27,741 nt of DNA, from contig JACDHQ010000001.1 of the NCBI GenBank assembly GCA_013820975.1, positions 1 through 27,741 of the forward strand, written 5' to 3'. The notes below the pieces were generated by a model. The model was given only the letters and a program-made list of their open reading frames with translations, was not told the DNA's origin and did no database searches. Shown piece by piece: positions 10,565-27,741 of this stretch (position 1 is its first letter; every line of letters starts with the position of its first letter). Origin of the DNA: Gemmatimonadaceae bacterium (lineage in GTDB: Bacteria > Gemmatimonadota > Gemmatimonadetes > Gemmatimonadales > Gemmatimonadaceae). The translations under genes were made by a program, and so were the position numbers.

Positions 10565-11587
10565 CTACACCCGCTTGACCGTGTTCCACTCCAGCAGGCA
10601 CGCCCCCCACGAGTAGCCCACCCCAAAGCCGACGAGCATCACTCGATCTCCGGGCCCGAAGTCGACACCCTTCTCGAACATCGCGATTGGAATCGTGCTG
10701 CTCACGGTGTTGCCGATGGATTCCAGAAACATCGGCGCCTTCTCCTTCGGGATCTTCAGCTTGGTGCGCAGGTGGTCGTTCATGAATGCATTCGCCTGGT
10801 GAAACACGAACCAGTCGACGGCATCCCGCGTGATCCCGGCGCGCCGGAGCGTGGCATCGACGACCTGCGGGACCCGCCTGAGCGTGAACAGAAACAGCTC
10901 CTGGCCATCCATGTACAGCTGCTCCGCTGTCCGCACGGAGCCGTTCTCGTCCTCGACCTCCTGCTGGGTCGCGGCACAGCGCGGCCGGCGCGCGCCACCC
11001 GCTGGGACGATGAGGTTCTCGTAGCCTGCCCCGTCGGTGCCGAGTGTGCAGACGCCGATCTTTGCGCCGCTGCCGTCGCCGTTGATGAGCGTTGCGCTTG
11101 CGCCGTCGCCGAACAGCACGCGTACCGACCGGTCACGCGGGTGAATGAGCTTCGAATACGTCTCGGCAGTGATCAGGAGAACGTTCTTCGCCGAACCCGA
11201 AGCAACCAGTGCCTTTGCGAGGTACAGACCGTACACGTAGCCCGAGCAGCCCTGATTGAAGTCCAGCGCGGCGCAGTCGGTCGGCAGGCCGAGGCGATCC
11301 TGCAGCACGCACGCCGTCGTCGGGAGGAAGTAGTCGGGACTCTGCGTGCAGAGCAGCAGGCAATCCACTGATGCGCGATCGACGTTCATTCCCGTGAGCA
11401 GCTTCTCCGCTGCGGCAAAGCCGAGGTCCGATGCGCTCTCATCGGGACCGGCGATGTGCCGTGCGCGAATGCCTACCTTGGACTCGATGCGCGCCATGTC
11501 CCACGACGGATTCTCTGCCTGGAGGTCGTCGTTGGTCACGATGCGCTCGGGCAGATGATAGGCCATTCCCGCGATGTAGGCGTCCAT
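10565..11587 (-). CDS. 3-oxoacyl-ACP synthase III (FabH-like), copy A
   Basis: Intact Cys-His-Asn triad: NQGCSGYVYG, FHQAN, GNTVSSTIP. Also LFGDGASA and GFGVGYSWG. Confidence 0.92.
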   Translation of the reverse strand: MDAYIAGMAYHLPERIVTNDDLQAENPSWDMARIESKVGIRARHIAGPDESASDLGFAAAEKLLTGMNVDRASVDCLLLCTQSPDYFLPTTACVLQDRLGLPTDCAALDFNQGCSGYVYGLYLAKALVASGSAKNVLLITAETYSKLIHPRDRSVRVLFGDGASATLINGDGSGAKIGVCTLGTDGAGYENLIVPAGGARRPRCAATQQEVEDENGSVRTAEQLYMDGQELFLFTLRRVPQVVDATLRRAGITRDAVDWFVFHQANAFMNDHLRTKLKIPKEKAPMFLESIGNTVSSTIPIAMFEKGVDFGPGDRVMLVGFGVGYSWGACLLEWNTVKRV

Positions 11588-12331
11588 CTACCGGCCCCCC
11601 GATGTCGCGCCATGCCGGGCCGCCTGCGCCGCACCATCCGAGTCGTCGGGCTGCACCGGAGGCACGAACATGAGCCGCTGCGCCGGAACGCCAAACACCG
11701 TGGCGCCCGGTGCCACACGCCGGATCACGACACTCCCCGCACCGACCGTTGCGAAGTCACCCACGCGTGCGCCAGGAAGTACGGCGGCGTGCGCGCCGAG
11801 CGTCACGCCACGACCGAGCACGGCCCCGCCCATGATGTCGCTGTGCGCCCCGACGTGGCAGCCGTCGCCCACGACGACGTCGTGCGCCGGACCGCCCAGC
11901 AGGTCGATGAACACGAAGTCTCCGAGAACGGCGTTGGGGCCGACACCGGTGTACTGCCGCAGCACCACTCCCTCGCCAAGCGTCGCGCTGCGATGCACCA
12001 GCGATGTGGGATGGCGCAGATTCACAAAGCTTGCCCCCCGCGACCGAAGGGCGTTGCACCGGCCAAGCCTGGCGCGCGGCGACGGAATGGCGGGAACGAA
12101 CACCTCGTCGCCGTGGGGGCTGTGGTCGATGATGCCTCCGATCACGGGAAGGTCCACACCGCAGCGGGCCAGCGCATCGCGTGCGCCGTCGACGTCATCA
12201 TCCAGGAAACCCGCGATCTCCCAGTCACGCTGGTCGGCGGGAATCTCCTCCGCCGTCCAGAGTGTCTCCCGGCCGAGGCCTCCCGCTCCGATGATGATGA
12301 GGCGCCGCCGCGCTCCGATGGGATGGCTCAT
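11588..12331 (-). CDS. NeuD/PglD/VioB-family sugar acyltransferase (hexapeptide repeat), copy A, catalytic His present
   Basis: N-terminal IIGAGGLGRE...GFLDDD domain, left-handed beta-helix repeats, 'AHDVVVGDGCHVG', C-terminal GAGSVV...GVPA. Confidence 0.88.
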   Translation of the reverse strand: MSHPIGARRRLIIIGAGGLGRETLWTAEEIPADQRDWEIAGFLDDDVDGARDALARCGVDLPVIGGIIDHSPHGDEVFVPAIPSPRARLGRCNALRSRGASFVNLRHPTSLVHRSATLGEGVVLRQYTGVGPNAVLGDFVFIDLLGGPAHDVVVGDGCHVGAHSDIMGGAVLGRGVTLGAHAAVLPGARVGDFATVGAGSVVIRRVAPGATVFGVPAQRLMFVPPVQPDDSDGAAQAARHGATSGGR

Positions 12332-12334
12332 CGG

Positions 12335-12985
12335 TCAGACGGCCAACGGCCGCGCCGGCACGCCAAGCTGCGTGGAGCCCGCGGCGACACGGCGCAACAC
12401 GACACTGCCGACGCCGATTGTCGCGAACGCGGCGACCCGGACATGCGGGTGGACCGTCACGTGGCTGCCGAGAAAGGTGCCGCGCTCGAGCACGGCGCCG
12501 GACATGAGCTCGCACCGCGCGCCGACGAAGGAGCCCTCGCCGACGACGACATCCTCGCGCAATGACGCGGAAGGGTTGAGCACACTGAACTGGCCCACCG
12601 CTGCCTTGGGCGCAACGCAGGCAAGCGGTCCGATCACCACCCCGGTCCCGATGGATGCGGACCGGTGGACGCGCGCGGTCGGATGAACGAGCGTGATGAA
12701 CGCAGCACCACGATCGAGCAGCGAGCTGCCGATCGCCAGGCGCGCGCGATTGCTCCCGATCGCGGGCAGGAACACCTCGTCGGACCCCGGCACGTGATCG
12801 CGAATGGTGCCCAGCACCGGCAGGTCGACGCCCATGGCGGCGAGGCTCGCCCGCGCGCCGTCCCGATCGTCGTCGAGGAAACCTGCGACATCCCACTCCC
12901 GCGCCGCAGCGGCGATGTCGTCTGCCATCCACAGCACCTCGCGCGCGAACCCGCTTGCGCCGAGCAGCAGCAGTCGCCTGCGCAT
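12335..12985 (-). CDS. NeuD/PglD-family acyltransferase-like protein, copy B, catalytic His position replaced
   Basis: Colinear with copy A (LGASGFARE...GFLDDD...GVDLPV, GSVV...GVPA) but reads 'LREDVVVGEGSFVG' where copy A has 'PAHDVVVGDGCHVG'. Confidence 0.85.
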   Translation of the reverse strand: MRRRLLLLGASGFAREVLWMADDIAAAAREWDVAGFLDDDRDGARASLAAMGVDLPVLGTIRDHVPGSDEVFLPAIGSNRARLAIGSSLLDRGAAFITLVHPTARVHRSASIGTGVVIGPLACVAPKAAVGQFSVLNPSASLREDVVVGEGSFVGARCELMSGAVLERGTFLGSHVTVHPHVRVAAFATIGVGSVVLRRVAAGSTQLGVPARPLAV

Positions 12986-12986
12986 G

Positions 12987-13748
12987 CTAGGCGGAGTAGC
13001 CGCCGTCGATCACCAGCATGGTGCCGGTGACGACGCGGGCAGCGTCGGACAGGAGATAGGCTGCCATCACGGCAACCTCCTCGGGTTTCGGAATCCCCAG
13101 AAAGTGCTCTTCCTCGAGCTTGGTGATGACCGCGTCGGGTGTCGTCGCTTTCATCTCGTGGTACATGGGCGTCTCCACGTAGCCCGGTGCGATCGCGTTC
13201 ACCCGCACCCGTCTGGGCCCGAGCTCCTTGGCCGCGGAGCGCACGATGCCGTTGATGGCGCCCTTGGTGCCGGCATACGTCACCAGCCCGGGCGACCCAT
13301 CGAAGCTCGCCACCGACGACAGCAGCACGACGGATGACTGCCCGGCCGCCACCCCCTTGGCACTGAACCCGCGCAGGAGTCCCAGCGCCGCGTACACGTT
13401 GGGGATCATGAGGTTATCCGTGTTCGCGCGATTTGCCACGCGGATCGGCATCGTGACGCTCAGTCCCGCGGAATGCACCAGCCCATCGAGCGGCGCCTCC
13501 GCGCGTTCGCGCACACCCGTGATCCATGCCGGAATGCCGTCCATCGCCGTGAGGTCGAATGGCTCGACGCGGTGCATCTCCGCATTGGGCAATGCGGCCT
13601 GCGTCTCGCGCAGCGCACCCTCGCGGCGTCCGCCGAGCACGACACGTGCGCCGAGCTGGCCGCAGAGAATGGCGATCGCGCGGCCGATGCCGGATGAGGC
13701 GCCGGTGACGAGGATGGTCTTTCCGGTGAGGTCGAGCGGATTGTGCAC
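12987..13748 (-). CDS. FabG-like classical SDR (putative 3-oxoacyl-ACP reductase), copy A
   Basis: TGASSGIG, LVHSAG, SS, YAGTK (YxxxK), RVNAIAPG, IDGG. GTG start. Confidence 0.88.
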   Translation of the reverse strand: MHNPLDLTGKTILVTGASSGIGRAIAILCGQLGARVVLGGRREGALRETQAALPNAEMHRVEPFDLTAMDGIPAWITGVRERAEAPLDGLVHSAGLSVTMPIRVANRANTDNLMIPNVYAALGLLRGFSAKGVAAGQSSVVLLSSVASFDGSPGLVTYAGTKGAINGIVRSAAKELGPRRVRVNAIAPGYVETPMYHEMKATTPDAVITKLEEEHFLGIPKPEEVAVMAAYLLSDAARVVTGTMLVIDGGYSA

Positions 13749-13757
13749 GGGTGAAAC

Positions 13758-14894
13758 TCAGGCGTGAGTCAACGGATGTGATGCGGCGGAAGTGGACATC
13801 TGCTCCATGTACGCAGCGTGAAAGCGGTGCACCCGTTCTTCCTCTTCGCTGAGGATGCCCGGCTGCGTGGCGTCGCGCAGCCCGAGCTGGACTGCCTCGC
13901 ATACGACCCGATCTTCATGCGTCACCTTCTCGGTAAAAACCGCCGTCGACTCGGTCAGCGCGCTGTGCACCATCTCCTGCACGCCGGCGTCGGCCTTCAT
14001 TCGTGACAGAAAGACGATGCTCGTGAGCTGGGTCTCGACGGGGCTCACGGGGCGCAGCACCTGAAACCCGAAGGTCGCGCCGCAGAGGGTGGAGACGGTG
14101 ACGTTGGGGAAGATGAGCTGGTGGACGTAGCCGGGCACCGGATGCGGCATGCGGCTCGCCTTCACCAGGCGACCCAGCCGCGACGCCGTCGACGCCTCCA
14201 CGGGCGCATGCCAGGAGGAATGCAGGCCGTCGAAGCGGAAATCCATGCCGGACATCTCGAGCGGCTTGAACGTCTCCTCATGCACGAAGCCGACGTGATA
14301 CGCCTCGAGCCCGTTCTCCACTGCGACCTTCCAGTTGCAGCGCAGGAGGACATCGAGCCGCGAAACCGGCGTGCCGAGTGCGAGGCTCATCTGCTCGAGC
14401 GGCGCGAAGCTCGCACCGAGAAACTCACGAAGCGACTCCCCGGGTACGGACGAATCTCCCTCGCCTTCGGCGCCTTCGCGAACGAACACCAGGCCACCGC
14501 ACACATCCAGGTCGTAGCGTCGCAACGCAAGTCTTGCGACCTCCGCGCGGTCCTTCAGTGCATCGAAGCGCGGGCGACTCGGAATGCTGTACGGAATGCC
14601 CTCGGCGTTGTAGATCCACCCGTGATACCCGCACCGCAGCTTGCCATTGCCCTTTGCCTCGCACCGGAGCCGTGAAAATCGGTGCGAGCAGACATTGGCG
14701 AATCCGCGCAGCTCGCCGTCGAAGTTCTGAACCAGCACGGCGCGGCCGGCGACTTCGGTGGTGATGAAGTCGTTGGGAGCCGCGAGATCGGTGGCGAAGC
14801 CGGCGAACTGCCACAGGCGGCCGAAGAGGGACTGGCGTTCCATCCGGAACGCTTCGTCCTCGAAGTACGCGCTGCGGGGAATGAGGGGACGCAC
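13758..14894 (-). CDS. Rieske non-heme iron oxygenase alpha subunit (choline monooxygenase/ring-hydroxylating family)
   Basis: Rieske ligands CSH...CGYH (C-x-H...C-x2-H). Mononuclear Fe motif NWKVAVENGLEAYHVGFVH and EDRVVCEAVQLG. Confidence 0.92.
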   Translation of the reverse strand: MRPLIPRSAYFEDEAFRMERQSLFGRLWQFAGFATDLAAPNDFITTEVAGRAVLVQNFDGELRGFANVCSHRFSRLRCEAKGNGKLRCGYHGWIYNAEGIPYSIPSRPRFDALKDRAEVARLALRRYDLDVCGGLVFVREGAEGEGDSSVPGESLREFLGASFAPLEQMSLALGTPVSRLDVLLRCNWKVAVENGLEAYHVGFVHEETFKPLEMSGMDFRFDGLHSSWHAPVEASTASRLGRLVKASRMPHPVPGYVHQLIFPNVTVSTLCGATFGFQVLRPVSPVETQLTSIVFLSRMKADAGVQEMVHSALTESTAVFTEKVTHEDRVVCEAVQLGLRDATQPGILSEEEERVHRFHAAYMEQMSTSAASHPLTHA

Positions 14895-14903
14895 TGGCGG
14901 CGG

Positions 14904-15143
14904 TCAGCTCGCGAGCGAGGTCTTGGCCGACAGGTAATCCACCACGTCCTGCACCGTCAGGAACCCCCGAATTGCCGAGGACTCGATCTGCACGCCGAGC
15001 TGCTCATCGACCATCGACATGATCGTGAGCCACCCGATGGAGTTCCACTCCTCGACGTCCGCGATGCGCGTGTCGGGCGTCAGCACGCCGGCATCCACTT
15101 CCAGTCCTTCCGCGAACAGTTCCACGAGCTTGTCGTTCGTCAT
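14904..15143 (-). CDS. Acyl carrier protein
   Basis: 79 aa, acidic, start ATG 15143 with GAGGAAAGG upstream. Phosphopantetheine site WNSIG (DSL-type motif with Asn), then LGVQI...TVQDVVDYL. Confidence 0.88.
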   Translation of the reverse strand: MTNDKLVELFAEGLEVDAGVLTPDTRIADVEEWNSIGWLTIMSMVDEQLGVQIESSAIRGFLTVQDVVDYLSAKTSLAS

Positions 15144-15213
15144 CGTCCCTTTCCTCGATCGGATGAGCCGTTCACTGCAGCCAGCGGTTGTGCGGGCTGC
15201 GGCACGACTCCGT

Positions 15214-15969
15214 TCAACAGGTCCAGCCGCCATCGATCACCAGCGTCGTGCCGGAGATCGTACGCGTCGCATCTGACAAGAGGTATGCCGCGGAAGTTGC
15301 GACATCCTCCGGCGAAATGGCGCCGAGGAACTGGCGCTCCGCCACCTTCGCAAAGCCATCGCCCTGAATGTCCTGCACGACGTCCATGATCGGGCCCTGG
15401 ACCCACGCCGGGGCCACGCAGTTGATGCGCATGCGCCGCGGCGCCAGCTCCTTTGCCGCCGAACGGACCATGGCATGGAGCGCGCCCTTGGATGCACTGT
15501 ACACGGAGTGCCCGAGCGCGCCCGCAAGTCCGCTCACCGACGAGACCAGCACCAGCGATGCCGCGTCTGCCCCCACTCCTTTCGCTGCCATTCCGCGAAC
15601 AAGGGCCAGCGAGGCATACACGTTCAGCACCATGAGATCCTCCATCCGGCTCCGGTTGAGGATCCGGATGGGTATGGCTGTACTGAGCCCCGCCGCGTGC
15701 ACCACGCCGTCGAACGGGACGCCCCGCGCTGCCGCAACTCCCTTGAGCCACGCGGGAATGCCGTCAACCTCCGTGAGATCGTAGCACGCCGCGACATGGC
15801 CGGTGCCTTCGAGCATCCCCAGCGTCTCTTCGAGCGCATCCTGACGACGCGCCACGAGCACGAGTTCCGCTCCGAGCTGGCCGAGCACCACGGCGGTCGC
15901 GCGACCGATGCCCGACGAGGCCCCGGTCACGATCACGCGCTTGCCGCTCAGGTCAAGCGGATTGCGCAT
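15214..15969 (-). CDS. FabG-like classical SDR (putative 3-oxoacyl-ACP reductase), copy B
   Basis: TGASSGIG, VVHAAG, SS, YSASK, RINCVAP, IDGG. Shares the N-terminal NPLDL(S/T)GK with copy A. Confidence 0.88.
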   Translation of the reverse strand: MRNPLDLSGKRVIVTGASSGIGRATAVVLGQLGAELVLVARRQDALEETLGMLEGTGHVAACYDLTEVDGIPAWLKGVAAARGVPFDGVVHAAGLSTAIPIRILNRSRMEDLMVLNVYASLALVRGMAAKGVGADAASLVLVSSVSGLAGALGHSVYSASKGALHAMVRSAAKELAPRRMRINCVAPAWVQGPIMDVVQDIQGDGFAKVAERQFLGAISPEDVATSAAYLLSDATRTISGTTLVIDGGWTC

Positions 15970-17071
15970 GCTCGATCTGCATCTGCTCCACCGGACTTCG
16001 CCCCGCTACCACCGGAACGCGAATCACCTGAGCAACCTCGAGCCGCATCTCCACGGCGGCCGCGGCCCACGACAACCCGATGCCGAATCCCGCAAGGACC
16101 ATCTTCTCGGGCGTGCCGCTGGTGAGCACCGGCGCGAGGTCGTCGCCGAGCAGCAGCGGAATGGAAGACATGGAGGTATTGCCGTAGCGCTGGATGTTCA
16201 CCGGCACCTGCTCCGGCAGCACCTTCAGCTTCTTCGCCATCATGTTGAGGATGAAGCCGTTCGCCTGGTGAAACGCGAACGCCTTCACCTCCTCCTTCTG
16301 CCAGCCGTGCAGCGCGAGCACGTCCCTGATGAGCGTCGGCACACGCTTGAGCGTGAAGTTGAACACGGCCAGGCCATCCATGTACAGCTCGAACGGCGCA
16401 CGGCGATTGCCGTCTTCTGCGTCAACGCGCTGCAGCAACTCGGCTGTTGGCCGCTGGCGCCATCCGCCGGCCGGCGCGATGAGGTGACACGCGCCGGTGC
16501 CATCGCTGCCGAGGACGAATGAGATGGGCGGTGCGGTCTCGTCGAACTCCAGCGCGGTCGCCGTGCCAGCATCGCCGAACAGCATCGCGACGGAGCGATC
16601 CTCCGAGGAGATACCGATGCTCGAGGTATCGCCGGCAAGCAGCAGGAAGCGCTTGAGCCCACCCGACTGGATGAACTGGGATCCCATGTACAGGCCATAG
16701 ACATAGCCCGAGCAGCCCTGGTTCACGTCGAACGCAAGGGCATCGCTCGATAGCCCCAGACGCCCGTGCGCGATGTTCGCTGTCGCGGGGCAAAGATGGT
16801 CTGGGGTCTGGGTCACCATGATGACACCGTCGATGGACTCGCGCTCCCAGCCGAGGTCCGCGAGCAGCCGTTCGGCGGCCTGCACCGCGAGGTCGCCCGC
16901 GGTCTGCCCGGGCGCGACGCGGTGCACCGTCTCCAGTCCGACCGTTTTCGCGATCTTCTGGACGTCGGACTCACCGAAGTGCTTGCCGATCTCGGCGACC
17001 TGCAACGGTTCGCCGGGTACGGCGCACACGACTCCGCGGATCGCGACGTTCCTGTTCTGTGTTCTTGCCAT
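15953..17071 (-). CDS. 3-oxoacyl-ACP synthase III (FabH-like), copy B
   Basis: Intact triad: NQGCSGYVYG, FHQAN, GNTSMSSIP. Also LFGDAGTA and GFGIGLSWA. AGGAG precedes the ATG. Confidence 0.92.
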   Translation of the reverse strand: MARTQNRNVAIRGVVCAVPGEPLQVAEIGKHFGESDVQKIAKTVGLETVHRVAPGQTAGDLAVQAAERLLADLGWERESIDGVIMVTQTPDHLCPATANIAHGRLGLSSDALAFDVNQGCSGYVYGLYMGSQFIQSGGLKRFLLLAGDTSSIGISSEDRSVAMLFGDAGTATALEFDETAPPISFVLGSDGTGACHLIAPAGGWRQRPTAELLQRVDAEDGNRRAPFELYMDGLAVFNFTLKRVPTLIRDVLALHGWQKEEVKAFAFHQANGFILNMMAKKLKVLPEQVPVNIQRYGNTSMSSIPLLLGDDLAPVLTSGTPEKMVLAGFGIGLSWAAAAVEMRLEVAQVIRVPVVAGRSPVEQMQIEHAQSA

Positions 17072-17080
17072 GCCCGACTC

Positions 17081-17458
17081 CTAGGTGAGTACGACCACTG
17101 CGCCGGCGATTCCGCCGTCGTGGCTGATGCTCGTCTCGAACGTGGTGAAGCCTGCCTCGCTTGCGCGGCGCAGCGCTTCACCGGACAACTCCAGCACTGG
17201 TGCTCCCGAATCGGCGGTGGTCGTCTCGATGTCGCCGAGTGGGATGCCCGCGCTCAGGCCCGTGCCGAGTGCCTTGAGCACCGCCTCCTTTGTGGCGAAC
17301 CGGCCGGCGAGGTACGCGTAGCGGCGGAACTCGTTCGCATCCTGAACCGCAGCAAGCTCGCGCTCCGAAAAGGTCCGCGCGGCCAGCGGGGGATGCGCCT
17401 GCAGGAGGCGGCGCAACCGGGCAATTTCGACGAGGTCCAGTCCGACCCTGAGTGGCAT
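17081..17458 (-). CDS. acpS: Holo-ACP synthase (AcpS-type phosphopantetheinyl transferase)
   Basis: GLDLVEIAR, FSERE, LAGRFATKEAVLKALGTG, SISHD. Confidence 0.93.
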   Translation of the reverse strand: MPLRVGLDLVEIARLRRLLQAHPPLAARTFSERELAAVQDANEFRRYAYLAGRFATKEAVLKALGTGLSAGIPLGDIETTTADSGAPVLELSGEALRRASEAGFTTFETSISHDGGIAGAVVVLT

Positions 17459-17461
17459 CGG

Positions 17462-18079
17462 TCACTCCAGGATCGAGACGATCCTGAGGGAAGGCTCGGC
17501 CAGCTTCGCGAGCCGGGCCCGAATGGCCTCATCCTGAGTGATGCTGGTGATGACCACGGCATCGGGGGCGAGGCCGCGAAGCTCCGAGCGGTGCCGGATG
17601 GGTGCACCGCGGCACAGGCGTCCCCGCTTGACCGGGTCGTCGTCGATGACGCAGACGACGGTGACGACCTCGGTGCCTGTGAGCGCATCCATCACCACTT
17701 CCCCCGTTTCGCCGGCGCCATACAGCGCCACCCTGAAGACGCCCTGCTTGCGGAGCTCGCCGAAGAACTGCCGGAAGCGCGAGCGGGTCGCCTGGGTCAG
17801 CCGGACGAGCTCGGCCCGGTAGCTGACCTGGTGGTACGCGAGGCAACGCCTGCCCTGGGGCGTGAGGCGATAGGCCATGCCCTGGGAGAGCTGTTCGGTG
17901 GTGATGTACTCGCGTTCCTTGAACATGCGGATGTAGGCATTGACGCGAGCCGGCGTGAGCCCGACGAGGCTGGCGAGCGAACTCTGCGAGGTTTGCGGCT
18001 GACCTTCGAGCAGTTCCATCAGCTGGAGCTCGCGCATGCGGGGCGAGGGCTCCAGGTAGTCGGCGGTCGTGGTGGTCAT
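17462..18079 (-). CDS. Winged helix-turn-helix (MarR/EPS-associated type) regulator with C-terminal Rossmann-like (CoA/NAD-binding) domain
   Basis: N-terminal SQSSLASLVGLTPARVNAYIR...YRLTPQG (wHTH). C-terminal VALYGAGETG...VIDDDPVKRG...PDAVVITS. Confidence 0.82.
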   Translation of the reverse strand: MTTTTADYLEPSPRMRELQLMELLEGQPQTSQSSLASLVGLTPARVNAYIRMFKEREYITTEQLSQGMAYRLTPQGRRCLAYHQVSYRAELVRLTQATRSRFRQFFGELRKQGVFRVALYGAGETGEVVMDALTGTEVVTVVCVIDDDPVKRGRLCRGAPIRHRSELRGLAPDAVVITSITQDEAIRARLAKLAEPSLRIVSILE

Positions 18080-18196: not shown

Positions 18197-19282
18197 TCAG
18201 CGGTCGATGCGGCCCGCCGCCGCGGCGTCGCGCCAGCGCGTTAGCGGGTAGAGCACGAGGATGAAGGGGATCTTCACGAACGTGCGCCAATGGGCGAAAA
18301 GCAGCCGTGGCAGGTTCTCCATCAGATGCGCGTGCTCCATGCGCGCGATATCCGGCTGCAGCCGAATGCGGCCTATTGCATGGCGGAAGAGAATTCCGAC
18401 CATGATGAGGTCGGTGATGGGTTCAGGAAGCTTCCTGGCGAACTCTGCCCTGAGGACCTGATCGTCGAGACCGAGCAAAGCGGCTTCCTTGATGGTGCCG
18501 TACGCCCGCGGTGAGAAGCGCAGATCGTGACTATCGCGGTCGCTCCATCCGATCTCCGCGCTGCGAAGCAGGAGCGTCCGCTGATGGTGAGTAAAGAGGA
18601 GCACGGAAAGGGTGATGAACCAGAACTCCGTTTCCATGCGGCCGCGGTCGCTGACGCCCTTTTCGTGAGGCGTCAGGTCACGCCGCCTGTACACGTACTG
18701 GCTGATCTTACCGAGGGCGAGCAGATGCCTGACGCCTGGCTCAAGATCGGTCACCATTACGGACGCCTGCCCATCGAGGCGCACGCGATCGCCTTCGAAC
18801 TTGTAATTGTTGAATGAGGAGACGCAGAGCTCCGGCCGTATCGTCGAGAGATCGTGAAGCAGCGGGTCGAACTCCGTGTCGTATAACCCGTCGTCGTCGC
18901 CCCAGAGGCAGACATACGACCCGCGAGCCTGCTCGTACAACAGCTGGAAGTTGCGCATCATGCCGACGTTCTCCGCCTGTCGGAGCACCCGGACGTGACA
19001 GAGCGGCGCGAGCCGTTCGCCGAACGTCCGACAGACCTCGTCCGTCTTGTCGGGTGAGGCATTGTCGGAGATCACGATCTCGACGGCATCGCGGAACGCG
19101 GACTGCTCGAGCACGCGCACCATCTGCTCGAGGAGGCGAGCCAGCTTGGGTGCGCGCTTGTAGGTCGGGATACAAAACGAGAGCAGGAGTTCGCCCGGTG
19201 GGACCGTGCCGAACGTCATCTCCGTGAAGGGCTGTGGATCAGTATGTGGATCAGTATGTGGATCAGTATGTGGGTCGGTCAT
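18197..19282 (-). CDS. GT2 glycosyltransferase, similar to 3,6-dideoxyhexosyl (abequosyl/RfbV-type) transferases
   Basis: LSFCIPTYKR, VISDNASPD, NVGMMRNF, ARGSYVCLWGDDD (DXD). ATGA coupling to the upstream reductase. Confidence 0.82.
   Translation of the reverse strand: MTDPHTDPHTDPHTDPQPFTEMTFGTVPPGELLLSFCIPTYKRAPKLARLLEQMVRVLEQSAFRDAVEIVISDNASPDKTDEVCRTFGERLAPLCHVRVLRQAENVGMMRNFQLLYEQARGSYVCLWGDDDGLYDTEFDPLLHDLSTIRPELCVSSFNNYKFEGDRVRLDGQASVMVTDLEPGVRHLLALGKISQYVYRRRDLTPHEKGVSDRGRMETEFWFITLSVLLFTHHQRTLLLRSAEIGWSDRDSHDLRFSPRAYGTIKEAALLGLDDQVLRAEFARKLPEPITDLIMVGILFRHAIGRIRLQPDIARMEHAHLMENLPRLLFAHWRTFVKIPFILVLYPLTRWRDAAAAGRIDR
19233..19280. repeat. 12-bp tandem repeat TGTGGATCAGTA x3 plus one degenerate copy, in-frame (TDPH)n at GT2 N-terminus
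   Basis: Perfect copies at 19233-19244, 19245-19256 and 19257-19268; degenerate TGTGGGTCGGTC at 19269-19280. Confidence 0.95.
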
Positions 19283-20193
19283 GTGGCGCGGGATTGAGCG
19301 TGAGCTATGACGCGGCGCAGACCCTCTTCAAGGCTCACCTGAGGGGTCCAGCCCGGGATCGGGGAACCCAGGAACCACGGAACCATCACTTCACGCTCGC
19401 GGTAGGGACGGCTGCCCCAGCGGATGGGGAGCGGACGGCCGGCGATGCGACCGTACCGCGTGGCGACTTCCCGGAGGGAGACCGCGTCTCCTGAGGAGAG
19501 GGCGAAGATCTCGTGCGCCGCGCCAGCGCCCGCCTGCAGATAGCGCGCCGCGGCGATGAAGGCGTCCACCACGTCGTCGATGTACACCAGATCGAGGAGC
19601 TGGTCCCCGGGCGACATTGCGAGCTCGGATCCTTCCCTGGCGATGCGATCGAGCACGGAGAACAGCTTTGGCCGCGGATCCCCGGGGCCGTAGGTGTCGA
19701 ACACCCGCAGGGAGACCGCGCGAATGCGTGCCGTCTCGACGTAGAAGGTCAGAAGGGCCTCGAATGCCTGCTTCGTCGCGGCATACAGGCAGACCGGATT
19801 GTAGTCGCCGTTTTCGAAGTGCTGCCACGCGGTCCCGGCGTTCACCAGGTGACGGACACCGCTGGCGGCCATCGCATCGAGCAGCTGGGTAGCGAATTCG
19901 ACGTTGGTTCGAACGAGCCGTGTCACGTCCTCCTGCTGGTGCTGTGCGACGAAGACCGATGCCAGGTGGAAGACGACGGAGGGCGCCGCCGCGGCGACGA
20001 GAGTGTGCATCTGCGCGGTAGTGCCGTCGTGGACATGAGGGACCACCCCGGGAGGCAGTGCGTCGGCTTGCGACTCCGGACGGAGGACGGCATGCACCTC
20101 CCATCCGTCCGCGACCAGCCGGGCGGCGAGATGCGATCCGATGAAGCCTGTCGCGCCGGTGATGAGCGTCCGTCGGCGGTCAGTCGGGTGCAT
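19279..20193 (-). CDS. NAD-dependent NDP-4-keto-sugar reductase, CDP-abequose/paratose synthase-like
   Basis: TGATGFIG, VFHLAS, LYAATKQAFE (YxxxK), DTYGPGDPRPK, GDQLLDLVYIDD, RPYREREVM. Located directly within the ddh block. Confidence 0.75.
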   Translation of the reverse strand: MHPTDRRRTLITGATGFIGSHLAARLVADGWEVHAVLRPESQADALPPGVVPHVHDGTTAQMHTLVAAAAPSVVFHLASVFVAQHQQEDVTRLVRTNVEFATQLLDAMAASGVRHLVNAGTAWQHFENGDYNPVCLYAATKQAFEALLTFYVETARIRAVSLRVFDTYGPGDPRPKLFSVLDRIAREGSELAMSPGDQLLDLVYIDDVVDAFIAAARYLQAGAGAAHEIFALSSGDAVSLREVATRYGRIAGRPLPIRWGSRPYREREVMVPWFLGSPIPGWTPQVSLEEGLRRVIAHAQSRAT

Positions 20194-20757
20194 CGGCCGT
20201 TGCGTCGAACCTGAAGGGGCTCACAAAATCGCTCAGGCGCTCAAAAGCAGTGTCCCGGGGAGATACCGTGGGCGCGCGTTCGGGCCAGGCGATGCCGGCA
20301 GAATCCCATCGAATGCCGGTATCGGCGGCCGGCGCGTGCTCCGACGTCACGTTGTACACCATGAGCGCACTCTCGCTCGTAACCAGGAACCCGTGCGCGA
20401 GTCCCCGCGGCACGTAGAGCGCGTTGCCCACATCCGCGCGCAATTGCACGGTCGCGGCCTGACGATACGTCGGCGACCCGATGCGAAGGTCCACCACGGC
20501 ATCCAGTACGCTGCCGTGCGCACAGTAGACGAGTTTCGCATGATCGACGGGCGGCACCTGGAAGTGCAGGCCGCGCAGGACGCCTCGCACCGATACCGAG
20601 TGATACTGCTCGTCGAAGTCCGTCTCGAGTCCGCAGTCGTCAAAGGCGGATCGAACGAACACCTTCACGAAGCTCCCGCGCGCATCCTCGAACCGTCGCG
20701 GTCGAACTTCCCACGCACCGGGAATCGCCAGTGGCTCGAAGTGCAGCACCGCGCTGC

Positions 20758-20761
<4 letters not shown>
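20180..20761 (-). CDS. rfbC: RmlC-family NDP-4-keto-6-deoxyhexose 3,5-(or 5-)epimerase
   Basis: Start ATG 20761 (ATGA overlap with the rfbH stop). Motifs: [48 protein letters not shown]. Confidence 0.9.
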
Positions 20762-22097
<1,336 letters not shown>

Positions 22098-22101
<4 letters not shown>

Positions 22102-24029: not shown

Positions 24030-24653
24030 ATGGCCGGATATCGCGGAAAGCGCCTGTTCGACATCATTGCCGTGCTGCTCGCCGCGCCGCTCTGGGTTCC
24101 CGCCCTGGGCGTCGTTGCGGTCGTCGTGCGCTGGAAGATCGGCGCGCCTGTGCTGTTTCGTCAGGTGCGCCCCGGCCTCGACGGCCGGCCATTCGAGATG
24201 ATGAAGTTCCGGACGATGACCGATGGGCGTGATGTCTCGGGCGCCCTGCTGCCCGATGCCGAGCGGCTCACGCCAGCCGGCCGCCGGCTGCGGTCCACGT
24301 CGCTCGACGAGCTTCCCGAGCTGCTCAACGTCCTCCGAGGCGGGATGAGCCTCGTCGGTCCGCGTCCGCTGCTCGTGAGCTACCTGCCGCGCTACGCCGT
24401 GCATCACCGTCGGCGTCACGAGGTGCGTCCGGGGCTCACCGGGCTTGCGCAGGTATCCGGCCGCAACTCGCTCACGTGGCCGGACCGGCTCGATCTTGAC
24501 GTCGAGTACGTCGAGCGCTGCTCGCTCGCGCTCGATCTGCGGATTCTCGGGCGCACGGTGAGCGCGGTGCTCGGGCGGCGCGGAATCAGCGCGGAGGGCG
24601 AGGCGACCATGGCAGAGTTTACGGGTTACGCAGCGGACGAGCCGCGGCGGTGA
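24030..24653 (+). CDS. Small monotopic phosphoglycosyl transferase (PglC-like initiating sugar transferase)
   Basis: Start ATG 24030. KRLFD, RPGLDG.PF..MKFRTM, SLDELPELLNVL.G.MSLVGPRP (Asp-Glu dyad), RPGLTGLAQVSGRN. Confidence 0.93.
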   Translation: MAGYRGKRLFDIIAVLLAAPLWVPALGVVAVVVRWKIGAPVLFRQVRPGLDGRPFEMMKFRTMTDGRDVSGALLPDAERLTPAGRRLRSTSLDELPELLNVLRGGMSLVGPRPLLVSYLPRYAVHHRRRHEVRPGLTGLAQVSGRNSLTWPDRLDLDVEYVERCSLALDLRILGRTVSAVLGRRGISAEGEATMAEFTGYAADEPRR

Positions 24654-25834
24654 TGGGCCGGCGCCATGGCTGAGCGCGCCCCATCCTGGCGCGGAGACTG
24701 TCCCGCGGCCAGGCACCGCTGCAGGCTCTCGATGACCCGCGCCTGGTCCGATGCCGGGAGCGACGACGAGGATGGCAGGCACACGCCGGAGGCAAACAGC
24801 TCCTCGGCGACGGTGCCGCCCACGCGCGGCGCGTCGGCGAAGAGTGGCTGCGTGTGCATGGGACGCCACACCGGCCTTGCCTCGATCTCCGAACGACCGA
24901 GCACTTCGACCACCTCGTTGGGGCGCACCCCGGTCTGGCGCGGGTCGAGGATGGCGACGGTCAGCCACCTGGTGTGAAGCCCCCACGACGATTCGGGCTG
25001 CAGGCTCGCGCCACACATCATGCCAAACGCGGCAGCATACCGCTCTGCCACGGCGCGCCGCTGTGCCACTCGCTCGTCGAGCACCTGCAGCTGCCCGCGC
25101 CCGATGCCGGCCAGCACGTTGCTCATGCGGTAGTTGTATCCCAGTTCATGGTGCACGTACTCCGCCGCCGGCTCCCGCGCCTGCGTCGACCACTTGCGCA
25201 TGACGGCGATGGCCTCGGCGCTGCGGGCCACGACCATCCCGCCTGCCGTGGTCGTGATGATCTTGTTTCCGTTGAAGCTCAGCAGCGAATAGTCCGCGGT
25301 CGTGGCCGTCTGCCGGCCGCGGTAGGTCCCGCCGAGCGACTCCGCTGCGTCCTCGACGAGCGGGACGCCGTACTCGCGGCACGCCTCGGCGATGGCGTCG
25401 ATGTCGCAATGCTGCCCGTACAGGTGCACCGCGACGAGCGCCTTGGGCAGCGTCCCCGCCGCGGCGGCCGTCCGCAGGTACTCCCGCACCAGTGAGGGGT
25501 CGATGTTCCACGACTCGCGCTCGCTGTCGATGAAGACGGGCGTTGCGCCCAGGTACATGATCGGAAATACGGAGCCGGCGAAGGTCAGCGTGGAAACCGC
25601 AACGCGATCACCCGGCCCCACCCCCAGCCAGCGGAGGATCAGGTGCAGCGCCGCGGTTCCACTGGCGACGGCCAGCGTGGAAACCCCCTCGCCCAGCCGG
25701 CCGGCGACCTCCTCCTCGAACCGGTCGAGGTTGGGACCGACGGATGACAGCCAGTTCGAGGCGAAGGCCTCGGCCACGTACTGCTGCTCGTGGCCGCTCA
25801 TGTGCGGCACGGAAAGGTGAACGCGCGAGGACAC
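24626..25834 (-). CDS. DegT/DnrJ/EryC1/StrS PLP aminotransferase, PglE-like (UDP-4-keto-6-deoxy-GlcNAc 4-aminotransferase)
   Basis: HLSVPHMSG, ASNW...GP, SGTAALHL, VEDAAESLG, SFNGNKIITT (Schiff-base Lys), GYNYRMSNVLAGIG, RPVWRPMHTQP, GVCLPSSS. Confidence 0.93.
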   Translation of the reverse strand: MSSRVHLSVPHMSGHEQQYVAEAFASNWLSSVGPNLDRFEEEVAGRLGEGVSTLAVASGTAALHLILRWLGVGPGDRVAVSTLTFAGSVFPIMYLGATPVFIDSERESWNIDPSLVREYLRTAAAAGTLPKALVAVHLYGQHCDIDAIAEACREYGVPLVEDAAESLGGTYRGRQTATTADYSLLSFNGNKIITTTAGGMVVARSAEAIAVMRKWSTQAREPAAEYVHHELGYNYRMSNVLAGIGRGQLQVLDERVAQRRAVAERYAAAFGMMCGASLQPESSWGLHTRWLTVAILDPRQTGVRPNEVVEVLGRSEIEARPVWRPMHTQPLFADAPRVGGTVAEELFASGVCLPSSSSLPASDQARVIESLQRCLAAGQSPRQDGARSAMAPAHHRRGSSAA

Positions 25835-25857
25835 AGATGGAGGGAGTTCGTGGGAAA

Positions 25858-25882
25858 TGCAGCAGGCCCGGCCGCTGCTGCA
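25858..25882. promoter_or_regulatory. Inverted repeat TGCAGCAG-N9-CTGCTGCA in the aminotransferase leader/divergent region
   Basis: 8-bp arms at 25858-25865 and 25875-25882. Confidence 0.4.
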
Positions 25883-25936
25883 ACCATCAGGCCGCTACCG
25901 GCCCGTGGATTGCAAAGGAGGTTCCGCACCTTCCCA

Positions 25937-25945
25937 ATTCTAACA
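25937..25945 (-). promoter_or_regulatory. Extended -10 promoter TG-T-TAGAAT for the aminotransferase gene
   Basis: Plus strand ATTCTAACA at 25937-25945 reads TGTTAGAAT on the minus strand. Confidence 0.55.
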
Positions 25946-25949
25946 TAAT
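25944..25949 (+). promoter_or_regulatory. -10 element CATAAT 7 nt upstream of the PglF/CapD ATG (leaderless-like)
   Basis: CATAAT at 25944-25949, then CCGCTGT, then ATG 25957. No SD in between. Confidence 0.5.
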
Positions 25950-25956
25950 CCGCTGT

Positions 25957-27741
25957 ATGCAGAACCGGCATTTCTTCGTTCTCGACTTCATCCTGCTCAT
26001 CCTGGTCGCGGCGGTCGCATTCACGTCGCGATTCGAAGGGTGGGGGTGGTGGGCCGACTGGCATCGGGAGGCCATCTGGCTCGCGCTCCTGATCGTCCCG
26101 CTGAAGCTTGCCATCTTCCACGCAGTCGGGATATACCGCCGGCTCTGGCGGTATGCGAGCGTGGCCGAGCTCGAGATCGTCCTGGTCGCGTCGGCGGTGA
26201 CGGCAGGGGTCACGCTCCTGGCCGGCACCCTGGTTCTCCCGGCACTTGGAGTCGTATCGGGACGCATCCCGCTGAGCGTGCTGCTCATCGACAGCATTCT
26301 GACGCCGGCGGTCATCACCATCCCGCGCATCGTCCTGCGGTCCTGGGCCAGGCGTGAGCTCAACGGAAGGAAGAGTCCCGCATCCGGCCGCCGGGCGCTC
26401 ATCGCCGGTGCGGGCGATGCCGGAGGCATGATCGCCGCCGAACTGCTCAGCAACCCGCAACTCGGCATCGTCCCGGTGGGCTTTCTCGACGACGACCCGT
26501 TCAAGCGGGGGCTCCACCTCCGCGGGTTGCGCGTGTTCGGCCCGCTCTCGACGCTGGCTGAGCATGTGAAACGCCACGAGGTGGACGAAGTGATCACCGC
26601 GATGCCGTCCGCGCCCGGGGCCGTGATCCGGGAGCTGGTGAAGGTCGCGGCGACAGCAGGGGTCAACGTCCGCACGATTCCGGGGCTGTACGAGATCCTT
26701 TCCGGCTCCAAATCGGTGAGCACGCTGCGCCAGATCGAGATCCAGGACCTGCTGCGGCGCGAGCCGATCGAGACCGACCTGGAAGAGGTCGGTCGCATGA
26801 TCACGGGGAGGGTAGTGCTGGTTACTGGTGCCGGGGGGTCGATCGGCAGCGAGCTGTGCCGCCAGATCGCCCAGCTCTCCCCCGCGAGGATCGTCGCGCT
26901 TGGTCGCGGCGAGAACTCGGTGTTCGAGATCCTGCAGGAGCTGCAGGTGACCTACCCGCACATCGACGTGGCGCCGGCGATCGTGGACGTGCGCGACGAG
27001 CGGCGACTCGACGCGGTGTTCGCCGCGCACCACCCGCATGCGGTGTTCCACGCGGCCGCCCACAAGCACGTGCCGCTCATGGAAGCGAGCGTGGACGAGG
27101 CGATCCTCAACAACGTGGTGGGGACGCAGAACGTCGCCGAGTGCTGCTCCATTTATGGCGCTGAGCGCCTGGTGCTCATCTCGACCGACAAGGCCGTACG
27201 GCCCACGAGCATCATGGGGGCGACGAAGCGCGTCGCCGAAGGGGTGGTGCATGCGGTGGCCGACCGCGAGCAGAAGAACTTCGTGTCGGTTCGGTTCGGC
27301 AACGTGCTCGGCAGCCGGGGCAGCGTGGTGCCGACATTCATGAGGCAGATCGCCGCCGGTGGGCCGGTCACCATCACCGACCCGGAGATGCGCCGCTACT
27401 TCATGACGATCCCGGAGGCGGTGCAGCTCGTACTGCAGGCGGCGGTGATGGGCCGCGGCGGCGAGACGTTCGTGCTGGACATGGGCGAGCCGGTGAAGAT
27501 CGTGGACCTTGCGACCGACCTGATCCGACTCTCGGGGCTGGAGCCGGGAACGGACGTGGAGATAAAGTTCACCGGGGCGCGCCCGGGGGAGAAGCTGTAC
27601 GAGGAGCTGTTCTTCGGGTCGGACGTCGCGACGCCGACGGTGCATCCCAAGGTCCTGCGGGCTCGCGACACCCACTTTCCACCGTCGATGGCGCTGATGG
27701 TCGACCGCCTGGCCGAGGCGGCGTGGCGCGCGGCGCCTACC
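25957..27741 (+). CDS. Membrane-anchored UDP-GlcNAc 4,6-dehydratase, PglF/CapD/WbpM family (3'-truncated; missing from ORF track)
   Basis: Hand translation from ATG 25957: MQNRHFFVLDF...GIYRRLWRYASVAEL, GFLDDD, VTGAGGSIGSELCRQ (26821), STDKAV..MGATK (27181), RFGNVLGSRGSVVP, RPGEKLYEEL. Open to the window end. Confidence 0.95.
   Translation, partial: MQNRHFFVLDFILLILVAAVAFTSRFEGWGWWADWHREAIWLALLIVPLKLAIFHAVGIYRRLWRYASVAELEIVLVASAVTAGVTLLAGTLVLPALGVVSGRIPLSVLLIDSILTPAVITIPRIVLRSWARRELNGRKSPASGRRALIAGAGDAGGMIAAELLSNPQLGIVPVGFLDDDPFKRGLHLRGLRVFGPLSTLAEHVKRHEVDEVITAMPSAPGAVIRELVKVAATAGVNVRTIPGLYEILSGSKSVSTLRQIEIQDLLRREPIETDLEEVGRMITGRVVLVTGAGGSIGSELCRQIAQLSPARIVALGRGENSVFEILQELQVTYPHIDVAPAIVDVRDERRLDAVFAAHHPHAVFHAAAHKHVPLMEASVDEAILNNVVGTQNVAECCSIYGAERLVLISTDKAVRPTSIMGATKRVAEGVVHAVADREQKNFVSVRFGNVLGSRGSVVPTFMRQIAAGGPVTITDPEMRRYFMTIPEAVQLVLQAAVMGRGGETFVLDMGEPVKIVDLATDLIRLSGLEPGTDVEIKFTGARPGEKLYEELFFGSDVATPTVHPKVLRARDTHFPPSMALMVDRLAEAAWRAAPT

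What the first reader, a model, noticed from the sequence alone, without database searches (positions are those of the whole stretch)
13758..14894. Rieske oxygenase wedged between ACP and a ketoreductase, with no reductase partner in the window
Seen: complete Rieske and mononuclear-Fe ligands, placed directly downstream of the ACP in the acyl operon, with no ferredoxin, reductase or beta subunit nearby. Established: Rieske oxygenase genes occur alongside ACP/FabH/FabG genes in the P. aeruginosa PAK flagellin glycosylation island. I do not know of a firmly assigned reaction for such glycan-linked members. Inference: it hydroxylates, desaturates or oxidatively tailors an acyl-ACP or acylated NDP-sugar rather than an aromatic ring.
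Basis: partly seen in the sequence, partly recalled or inferred. Interest (0 to 1): 0.7.

Follow-up and report, generated by a model that had tools for sequence, protein, structure and literature searches.

The report
Rieske oxygenase tailoring a glycan acyl chain
This is a real iron-sulfur oxygenase gene from a widespread but untested enzyme group that sits inside gene sets building short hydroxy-acyl chains for surface amino sugars, so it most likely adds an oxygen to that chain rather than breaking down aromatic compounds.

Summary
Window 13758-14894 (-) encodes a 378-aa alpha-only Rieske oxygenase with all [2Fe-2S] and Fe(II) ligands. It lies 9 nt after an ACP gene and 9 nt before an SDR ketoreductase gene. 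No ferredoxin, reductase or beta subunit is on the contig, and no classical partner was found in the 78.6%-complete MAG.

The enzyme belongs to a large uncharacterised clade. Of the 44 closest genomic loci, 32 (seven phyla) carry it beside KSIII + ketoreductase, usually with ACP, a PglD/VioB-type N-acyltransferase and a sugar aminotransferase. The clade separates (SH-aLRT 97) from HcaE, BenA, AntA and GbcA-like enzymes.

In Flavobacterium the same cassette occurs with the Rieske gene (10 genomes) and without it (4 genomes have no family member anywhere). The published Rieske-less cassette makes 3,5-dihydroxyhexanoyl. At least six divergent natural fusions join this Rieske to a catalytically intact PglD-like acyltransferase.

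Best reading: an optional tailoring monooxygenase that oxidises the C4/C6 hydroxyacyl chain, on the ACP or just after transfer to the UDP-amino sugar, using a housekeeping electron donor. The reaction itself is not shown.

The parts
13758..14894 (-). Alpha-only Rieske non-haem iron oxygenase, 378 aa (the finding)
   Evidence: Pfam Rieske + Ring_hydroxyl_A. Ligands C69 H71 C88 H91 H200 H205 D328 and bridging E197 are invariant. AF2 pLDDT 92.3.
14904..15233 (-). Dedicated acyl carrier protein. The likely true start is the internal ATG near 15146 (MTNDK...). The attachment serine lies in an EEWNS motif.
   Evidence: PP-binding E 2.1e-07; translation. A similar EEWDS-motif ACP sits in a Paraburkholderia cassette.
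12987..13748 (-). SDR / FabG-like ketoreductase A
   Evidence: adh_short_C2 E 1.3e-46; FabG models match below their cut-offs.
15214..15969 (-). SDR / FabG-like ketoreductase B
   Evidence: adh_short_C2 E 3.2e-40.
15953..17071 (-). KSIII (FabH-like) B
   Evidence: ACP_syn_III and ACP_syn_III_C; NF006829 at 229 bits, below its 249-bit cut-off.
10565..11587 (-). KSIII (FabH-like) A
   Evidence: NF006829 beta-ketoacyl-ACP synthase 3, 283 bits against a cut-off of 249.
11588..12331 (-). NeuD/PglD/VioB-type N-acyltransferase that keeps the catalytic His (AHD)
   Evidence: TIGR03570 E 6.1e-44; motif alignment.
12335..12985 (-). Second NeuD/PglD-like LbH protein, in which the catalytic His is replaced (RED)
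   Evidence: TIGR03570 E 1.4e-42; motif alignment.
17081..17458 (-). AcpS-type phosphopantetheinyl transferase
   Evidence: ACPS E 7.8e-18; TIGR00556 and TIGR00516 above their cut-offs.
17462..18079 (-). wHTH regulator at the head of the acyl operon
   Evidence: HTH_24 E 1.2e-07.
24626..25834 (-). PglE/LegC-family sugar 4-aminotransferase; it supplies the amino-sugar acceptor
   Evidence: DegT_DnrJ_EryC1 E 1.7e-87; LegC family model at 338 bits.
25744..27741 (+). PglF/WbpM-like UDP-HexNAc 4,6-dehydratase (runs off the window end)
   Evidence: Polysacc_synt_2 E 4.8e-115.

Best explanation
The gene encodes an optional tailoring monooxygenase of a glycan N-acyl cassette. AcpS loads the dedicated ACP. 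Two KSIII enzymes and two ketoreductases build a short C4/C6 3-hydroxyacyl (3,5-dihydroxyhexanoyl-type) chain on that ACP. The Rieske enzyme, presumably an alpha3 trimer, inserts one oxygen atom into this chain while it is still ACP-bound. It works closely with the trimeric PglD-like N-acyltransferase, which then moves the oxidised acyl group onto UDP-4-amino-4,6-dideoxy-HexNAc made by the PglF-like dehydratase and the PglE/LegC-like aminotransferase. Electrons come from a non-dedicated housekeeping ferredoxin/reductase. Shown here: the intact enzyme, the gene context, the family-wide linkage to the cassette, the optional presence, and the fusions. Inferred: hydroxylation as the chemistry, the acyl chain as the target, the ACP-bound stage, the trimeric state and the electron source. 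I put the general role (oxidative tailoring of the acyl side chain) at about 0.7 and the ACP-bound stage at about 0.4.
For: The enzyme is intact, and all ligands are invariant across the family. Of the 44 closest loci, 32 have KSIII + KR within 6 kb, against 2 of the 36 more distant loci. On the tree the KS+KR label needs 7 changes against 31 when shuffled. No locus pairs the Rieske with an aminotransferase + N-acyltransferase but without a KSIII, which argues that the acyl chain, not the sugar, is the target. The commonest gene order is KS-Rieske-KR, which places the gene inside the chain-building block: 20 of 48 upstream neighbours are KS and 20 of 48 downstream neighbours are KR. Flavobacterium cassettes occur with the Rieske (10 genomes). 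Four cassette-bearing genomes have no family member anywhere. The published Rieske-less wfpC-wfpG cassette makes 3,5-dihydroxyhexanoyl (PMC6519341). At least six fused Rieske-PglD-like proteins, 53-59% identical to each other over the searched stretch, keep the GHD catalytic His. No recurrent redox partner appears in 34 loci. Flavobacterium sp. CF136 has this as its only Ring_hydroxyl_A protein.
Against: There is no biochemical or glycan-structure evidence, and no paper in the held library assigns a reaction. Gene order does not give reaction order. The fusion to the acyltransferase fits a post-transfer substrate equally well. A cyanobacterial and sulfotransferase-linked subclade has no ACP or KS nearby, so family members do not all need a carrier-bound substrate. 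I know of few precedents for Rieske enzymes acting on ACP-tethered chains (my knowledge). The electron donor is unidentified, and the MAG is incomplete.
Confidence: 0.4

Rival explanations
1. The role is the same but the stage is later. The PglD-like enzyme first transfers the hydroxyacyl chain to the UDP-amino sugar. The Rieske enzyme then hydroxylates the N-acyl group of the nucleotide sugar. This would be a bacterial functional analogue of CMP-Neu5Ac hydroxylase (CMAH).
For: Rieske-N-acyltransferase fusions exist. The same acyltransferase family also fuses to the next enzyme acting on the nucleotide sugar, Bac_transf (P0272-P0279). In 13 of 48 cases the Rieske gene directly abuts the acyltransferase gene. 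Some family members lack any ACP nearby. CMAH is a precedent for a Rieske protein hydroxylating an N-acyl group on a nucleotide sugar (my knowledge).
Against: The commonest position is between KS and KR, not next to the acyltransferase or aminotransferase. CMAH has a different catalytic domain, so it is only an analogy.
Confidence: 0.3
2. The chemistry on the acyl chain is not simple hydroxylation. It could be desaturation or oxidative cyclisation (lactone or ether formation), as in Rieske desaturases or RedG-type cyclases.
For: The cassette has no dehydratase or enoyl reductase, so a double bond or a ring could only arise oxidatively. Rieske enzymes are known to catalyse such reactions (my knowledge).
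Against: Nothing in the sequence distinguishes these outcomes, and hydroxylation is the default chemistry of the superfamily.
Confidence: 0.1
3. The enzyme acts on the sugar or its 4-amino group, for example by N-oxygenation or C-hydroxylation, rather than on the acyl chain.
For: Fusion and adjacency to the N-acyltransferase, whose acceptor is the amino sugar. PrnD is a precedent for a Rieske N-oxygenase (my knowledge).
Against: Among 80 loci, none pairs the Rieske with aminotransferase + acyltransferase in the absence of KSIII. If the sugar were the target, plain N-acetyl pathways should also carry it.
Confidence: 0.08
4. It is a catabolic Rieske oxygenase (quaternary-amine demethylase or aromatic ring hydroxylase) that merely lies within the glycan locus.
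For: The nearest solved folds are Stc2, CntA and TPADO, and the best NCBIfam hit is GbcA.
Against: The GbcA score is 90.6 bits against a cut-off of 670, and identity to those structures is 18-23%. The tree excludes GbcA-like, HcaE, BenA and AntA with SH-aLRT 97. There is no beta subunit or reductase. Synteny, the with/without pattern and the fusions tie it to the cassette.
Confidence: 0.03

Closest known systems
wfpC-wfpD-wfpE-wfpF-wfpG N-acyl cassette of the Flavobacterium psychrophilum O-polysaccharide locus (PMC6519341)
   Same: Both have two KSIII genes, an ACP, a ketoreductase and a PglD-like acyltransferase, next to pglE/pglF-type genes for UDP-Qui2NAc4N. The published product is a 3,5-dihydroxyhexanoyl amide. 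Other Flavobacterium species have the same gene order.
   Different: The paper text mentions no oxygenase for that cassette. The window's cassette adds the Rieske oxygenase, a second KR, a His-less second LbH protein, an AcpS and a regulator.
Viosamine island of Pseudomonas syringae pv. tabaci 6605 (vioA, acp, vioS, vioR, vioB, vioM, vioT; PMC3927599)
   Same: Both combine an aminotransferase, ACP, KSIII, KR and a VioB-type N-acyltransferase to make an N-(3-hydroxybutanoyl) amino sugar. Betaproteobacterial relatives of the window's Rieske sit in such islands with GT41-TPR transferases.
   Different: No Rieske gene is among its seven ORFs. It modifies flagellin, whereas the window's locus looks like a polysaccharide locus with a Wzz-like protein (GNVR domain).
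Xanthomonas flagellar-cluster genes XCV2007-XCV2013 (PMC3826837)
   Same: The annotation lists a Rieske 2Fe-2S protein, an acetyltransferase, two SDRs, a 3-oxoacyl-ACP synthase, an ACP and an aminotransferase in a row. This is the same set as here.
   Different: It is known only at the level of annotation. I could not fetch the sequence to confirm orthology, and I found no reaction assigned to it.
Alpha-only quaternary-amine Rieske monooxygenases: Stc2 (3vca), CntA (6y9d), GbcA
   Same: These are the closest solved folds (TM 0.74-0.76) and the nearest labelled outgroup in the tree. Like this enzyme they have no beta subunit. They also use a Glu rather than an Asp as the bridging acid (E197 here; the CntA comparison is from my knowledge).
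   Different: Identity is only 18-21%. The GbcA model scores 90.6 against a cut-off of 670. There is no adjacent reductase gene, and the gene context is entirely different.
CMP-N-acetylneuraminate hydroxylase (CMAH), from my knowledge
   Same: It is a Rieske-cluster monooxygenase that hydroxylates the N-acyl group of a nucleotide-activated sugar and uses general cellular electron donors.
   Different: Its catalytic domain has a different fold and it is found in animals. It is a functional analogy only and was not tested here.

Membership tests
Rieske non-haem iron oxygenase, alpha (catalytic) subunit | Rieske [2Fe-2S] motif C-x-H-x16-C-x2-H | tested here: met
   C69 H71 C88 H91, invariant in 36 sequences; Pfam PF00355 scores 46.8 bits against a cut-off of 20.3.
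Rieske non-haem iron oxygenase, alpha (catalytic) subunit | 2-His-1-carboxylate mononuclear Fe site plus a bridging acidic residue | tested here: met
   H200, H205, D328 and E197 are invariant; PF00848 scores 89.6 bits against a cut-off of 24.9.
Rieske non-haem iron oxygenase, alpha (catalytic) subunit | Fold of the solved alpha subunits | tested here: met
   AF2 pLDDT 92.3 and pTM 0.91; 192 PDB matches at E<=0.001, and all those listed are Rieske oxygenases.
Rieske non-haem iron oxygenase, alpha (catalytic) subunit | Dedicated reductase and/or ferredoxin component | tested here: not met
   None in the window, and no classical one in the 78.6%-complete MAG. No ferredoxin-motif ORF and no recurrent redox gene family in 34 related loci. 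Oxygenase activity itself cannot be tested here.
Heteromeric (alpha3beta3) aromatic ring-hydroxylating dioxygenases (BenA, AntA, HcaE, BphA type) | Beta subunit gene and an equivalog-level match | tested here: not met
   No Ring_hydroxyl_B in the genome. BenA, AntA and HcaE models score 55-66 bits against cut-offs of 672-830. The tree places them outside.
GbcA / CntA / Stc2 quaternary-amine monooxygenases | Equivalog-level match and a paired GbcB/CntB-type reductase | tested here: not met
   GbcA scores 90.6 bits against 670. There is no reductase. GbcA-like proteins of Paraburkholderia fall outside the clade, SH-aLRT 97.
Glycan N-acyl-cassette Rieske clade (unnamed, defined here) | Neighbourhood of KSIII + KR + ACP + PglD/VioB-type acyltransferase + sugar aminotransferase | tested here: met
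   All are present in the window. 32 of the 44 closest loci share KS+KR.
Glycan N-acyl-cassette Rieske clade (unnamed, defined here) | Phylogenetic placement among cassette-linked members | tested here: met
   The nearest rows are L011 (Gemmatimonadetes), L013 and L014, all cassette-linked. The backbone within the clade is poorly resolved.
Glycan N-acyl-cassette Rieske clade (unnamed, defined here) | Oxidises the hydroxyacyl side chain of the glycan | not testable with these tools
   This needs an enzyme assay or glycan MS/NMR of a mutant.

The most novel reading that the evidence does not exclude
The Rieske alpha3 trimer forms a threefold-symmetric complex with the trimeric LbH N-acyltransferase, covalently fused in some lineages, and with a His-less LbH paralogue as adaptor in others. 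It hydroxylates the N-acyl chain in the course of transfer to the nucleotide sugar, without any dedicated reductase. That would make it a new substrate class for Rieske oxygenases and a bacterial counterpart of CMAH, generating O-antigen and flagellin epitope diversity.
Probability: 0.3. Interest if true: 0.7.

Novelty: new variant of a known kind. Interest (0 to 1): 0.55.

Why it matters
Rieske oxygenases are studied mainly as catabolic and natural-product enzymes. This clade has more than 150 clusters at 50% identity with E<1e-74, is tied to surface-glycan acyl chains in seven phyla, and has no assigned reaction. It would add a new substrate class. It would also explain part of the serotype-level chemical diversity of O-antigens and flagellin glycans, including those of plant-associated Xanthomonas, Xylophilus and Paraburkholderia. 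The natural with/without cassettes in cultured Flavobacterium, and the natural fusions, make the question directly testable.

Tried and rejected
I used genome-contig loci instead.
2. The Arora 2001 and 2004 PAK papers are not held, so the PAK claim is unverified.
3. All ten literature searches are used, and none found an assigned reaction for a glycan-linked Rieske enzyme.
4. No ortholog was found in 40 relatives of the MAG; the best match is 35% identical.
5. A regex search for plant-type, Rieske-type and 4Fe-4S ferredoxins in 34 loci gave only junk ORFs and further Rieske oxygenase paralogues.
6. I tested whether a His-less LbH protein is a universal partner. It is not: it accompanies only a paralogous Rieske subclade and this window.
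7. I rejected a catabolic choline/carnitine/aromatic role.
8. I could not tell ACP-bound from sugar-bound substrate by any computation available.

Full report
**Observation.** The window is contig C322 of a 3.16-Mb, 78.6%-complete MAG. Its closest named homologs are from Gemmatimonadota.

- The ORF 13758-14894 (-) encodes 378 aa, with Pfam Rieske (residues 28-109) and Ring_hydroxyl_A (181-367).
- The cluster ligands are C69/H71/C88/H91. The iron ligands are H200/H205/D328, and the bridging acid is E197. All are invariant in a 36-member family alignment.
- An AlphaFold2 model built on that alignment has mean pLDDT 92.3.
- The gene begins 9 nt after the stop of a PP-binding ACP. It ends 9 nt before a FabG-like SDR.
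- It is one gene of a minus-strand operon: wHTH regulator, AcpS, KSIII-B, SDR-B, ACP, Rieske, SDR-A, LbH-B, LbH-A, KSIII-A.
- Further upstream on the minus strand lies a PglE/LegC-type aminotransferase. A divergently transcribed PglF-like dehydratase overlaps its start. Together they would supply UDP-4-amino-4,6-dideoxy-HexNAc.
- The locus also has a Wzz-like protein (GNVR domain), GT4 and GT2 transferases and a complete RfbF/G/H set. It is therefore a polysaccharide locus, not a flagellin island.

**Missing partner.** Whole-genome family scans find no Fer2, NAD_binding_1, second Rieske domain or Ring_hydroxyl_B on the contig.

- Genome-wide, the only Fer2 proteins are NuoG and SdhB. The only NAD_binding_1 protein is a membrane ferric-reductase-like protein.
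- Pyr_redox_2 flavoproteins do exist elsewhere in the genome.
- The absence is a family trait. In 34 related loci, no ferredoxin-motif ORF lies within 9 kb.
- The only recurrent extra families there are GT41-TPR, FkbM methyltransferase, alpha/beta hydrolase, GNAT, AMP-binding, Bac_transf and NeuB.
- Flavobacterium sp. CF136 has this enzyme as its only Ring_hydroxyl_A protein.

**Family and neighbourhood.** The protein has 273 relatives at E<=0.001 in the word-indexed search. The closest is 63% identical, and nearly all are metagenomic and unnamed.

- A profile search of 1.84 billion representatives gives 2788 hits at E<=1e-30, and the 150 listed all have E<1e-74.
- A scan of species-representative genomes returned 80 loci. 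I searched their six-frame ORFs with the window's own proteins.
- Of the 44 loci whose Rieske scores at least 148 bits, 32 have KSIII + KR within 6 kb. Most also have an ACP, a PglD/VioB-type acyltransferase and a DegT aminotransferase.
- Only 2 of the 36 more distant loci share this context.
- The 32 loci span Gemmatimonadota, Bacteroidota, Verrucomicrobiota, Acidobacteriota, Planctomycetota, Cyanobacteriota and Alpha-/Betaproteobacteria.
- On a maximum-likelihood tree the KS+KR label needs 7 changes against a shuffled mean of 31. Kin share labels, so this shows clustering, not independence.
- A 39-row, mainly planctomycete clade lacks the context. So does a small cyanobacterial subclade, two of whose members lie next to sulfotransferases.
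- No locus pairs the Rieske with aminotransferase + acyltransferase but without a KSIII.

**Relation to characterised enzymes.** NCBIfam's best hit is GbcA at 90.6 bits against a cut-off of 670. AntA, BenA and HcaE models score 55-66 bits.

- The closest solved folds are Stc2, 3n0q, CntA and TPADO, at TM 0.72-0.76 and 18-23% identity.
- I took the ten Ring_hydroxyl_A proteins of Paraburkholderia atlantica and labelled them with NCBIfam. HcaE, BenA and AntA scored above their cut-offs. Two others were GbcA-like and one AndAc-like.
- Nine of them, all but the cassette-linked protein itself, served as references in a tree. All fell outside the group holding the window's enzyme (SH-aLRT 97), and the GbcA-like proteins were the nearest outgroup.

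**An optional module.** In 201 Flavobacterium species genomes, 17 have a cassette-type KSIII.

- Ten cassettes include the Rieske gene, either as KS-ACP-KS-Rieske-KR or as ACP-KS-KR-Rieske.
- Others run ACP-KS-KR-acyltransferase without it. Of five such genomes checked, four have no family member anywhere at E<=1e-10.
- The published F. psychrophilum cassette wfpC-wfpG (two KSIII, ACP, KR, PglD homolog) makes the 3,5-dihydroxyhexanoyl amide of Qui2NAc4N. The paper text mentions no oxygenase (PMC6519341).
- The P. syringae viosamine island makes the 3-hydroxybutanoyl amide, also without one (PMC3927599).
- The Rieske is thus an add-on to a cassette whose baseline chemistry is known.

**Fusions.** Three of the long hits in the profile search carry a C-terminal PglD_N/hexapeptide domain: P0124 (578 aa), P0137 (590 aa) and P0130 (473 aa, with only the PglD N-terminal domain).

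- P0124 and P0137 keep the GHD catalytic His; P0130 ends before that motif.
- A search with the C-terminal part of P0124 finds further fused proteins (P0265, P0267, P0268, and P0266, which lacks the Rieske domain). They are 53-59% identical to P0124 over the searched stretch and come from separate assemblies.
- The fusion is therefore a real lineage and not an assembly artefact.
- Rieske alpha-only oxygenases and LbH acyltransferases both form homotrimers (established knowledge), so a fused threefold assembly is plausible.
- The same acyltransferase family also fuses to Bac_transf, the next enzyme on the nucleotide sugar.

**Gene order.** Among 48 Rieske genes in cassette loci, the upstream neighbour is KS in 20, KR in 9 and the acyltransferase in 7. 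The downstream neighbour is KR in 20, the acyltransferase in 6 and KS in 5. The window's ACP-Rieske junction is unusual, while its Rieske-KR junction is typical.

**Mechanism.** My committed reading has four steps:

1. The cassette builds a C4/C6 hydroxyacyl-ACP.
2. The Rieske enzyme adds one oxygen to the chain.
3. The PglD-like enzyme transfers the chain to the UDP-amino sugar.
4. Electrons come from housekeeping carriers.

I put the general role at about 0.7, the ACP-bound stage at about 0.4 and the post-transfer, CMAH-like stage at about 0.3. Which carbon is oxidised is unknown. Orthologous enzymes occur in both one-KS and two-KS cassettes, so a position common to C4 and C6 chains (C2 or C4) seems most economical. 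That is pure inference.

**Novelty.** The arrangement is visible in published annotation (Xanthomonas XCV2007-2013). Earlier notes of this scan describe the same kind of cassette in other genomes. I found no assigned reaction in the held literature. I class it as a new variant of a known kind: a Rieske monooxygenase clade with a new substrate class and no dedicated reductase.

**Limits.**
- The PAK papers are not held.
- The relatives tally includes the unpublished genome G009, but no claim depends on it.

Noticed in passing
window 19279-23976 (-): A complete RfbF (23173-23976), RfbG (22098-23429) and RfbH/E1 (20758-22101) set, all above their NCBIfam equivalog cut-offs, plus an RmlC-like epimerase (20180-20791) and a reductase (19279-20193). 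E1 also needs a [2Fe-2S] flavoprotein reductase (E3; my knowledge). None was found in the window or the MAG, so two Fe-S enzymes of this locus lack a visible electron donor. One unassembled E3-like reductase could serve both.
   Followed up: partly
window 12335-12985 (-); L039:9295-9945, L041:9623-10318, L046:15586-16281, L051:6888-7835: LbH (PglD-like) proteins with the catalytic His replaced lie beside or overlap paralogous Rieske genes in four loci. The window has one too (RED in place of GHD), two genes downstream of its Rieske. This may be a non-catalytic adaptor for the oxygenase.
   Followed up: partly
P0124, P0137, P0130, P0265, P0267, P0268 (metagenomic proteins): Natural fusions of this Rieske family to a PglD-like N-acyltransferase. 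P0124 and P0137 show an intact GHD motif.
   Followed up: yes
L015:1968-3829; L029:8042-9966: One subclade of the family lies next to one or two Sulfotransferase_3 genes, and in L015 also an alpha/beta hydrolase, with no KS or ACP nearby. This may be a hydroxylate-then-sulfate pathway. Its cyanobacterial members (Microcystis, Leptolyngbyaceae) have no recognisable partners.
   Followed up: partly
L044, L045, L046, L049, L051, L054, L039, L068, L089: Betaproteobacterial and some caulobacterial loci add a GT41-TPR glycosyltransferase, and several add an FkbM methyltransferase. They therefore look like flagellin glycosylation islands. Alphaproteobacterial loci add alpha/beta hydrolase, AMP-binding, GNAT and NeuB genes, which suggests N-acylated nonulosonic acids.
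   Followed up: partly
L011 (Gemmatimonadetes MAG) compared with the window: Between the two Gemmatimonadota cassettes, KSIII-A is 70% identical, KSIII-B 61%, KR 56%, the acyltransferase 47%, the ACP 45% and the Rieske only 42%. The oxygenase is the most diverged component.
   Followed up: no
window 14904-15233 (-); L044:7290-7535: The cassette ACPs carry the attachment serine in an EEW(N/D)S motif instead of the usual DSL. The window's ORF has a 29-codon N-terminal extension that overlaps SDR-B, so the real start is probably the internal ATG.
   Followed up: no
L014, L023, L026, L034, L039, L043, L046, L051: Eight loci hold two or three Rieske oxygenase paralogues, suggesting more than one oxidation per acyl sugar; six of them show a second copy within 6 kb of the first.
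   Followed up: no
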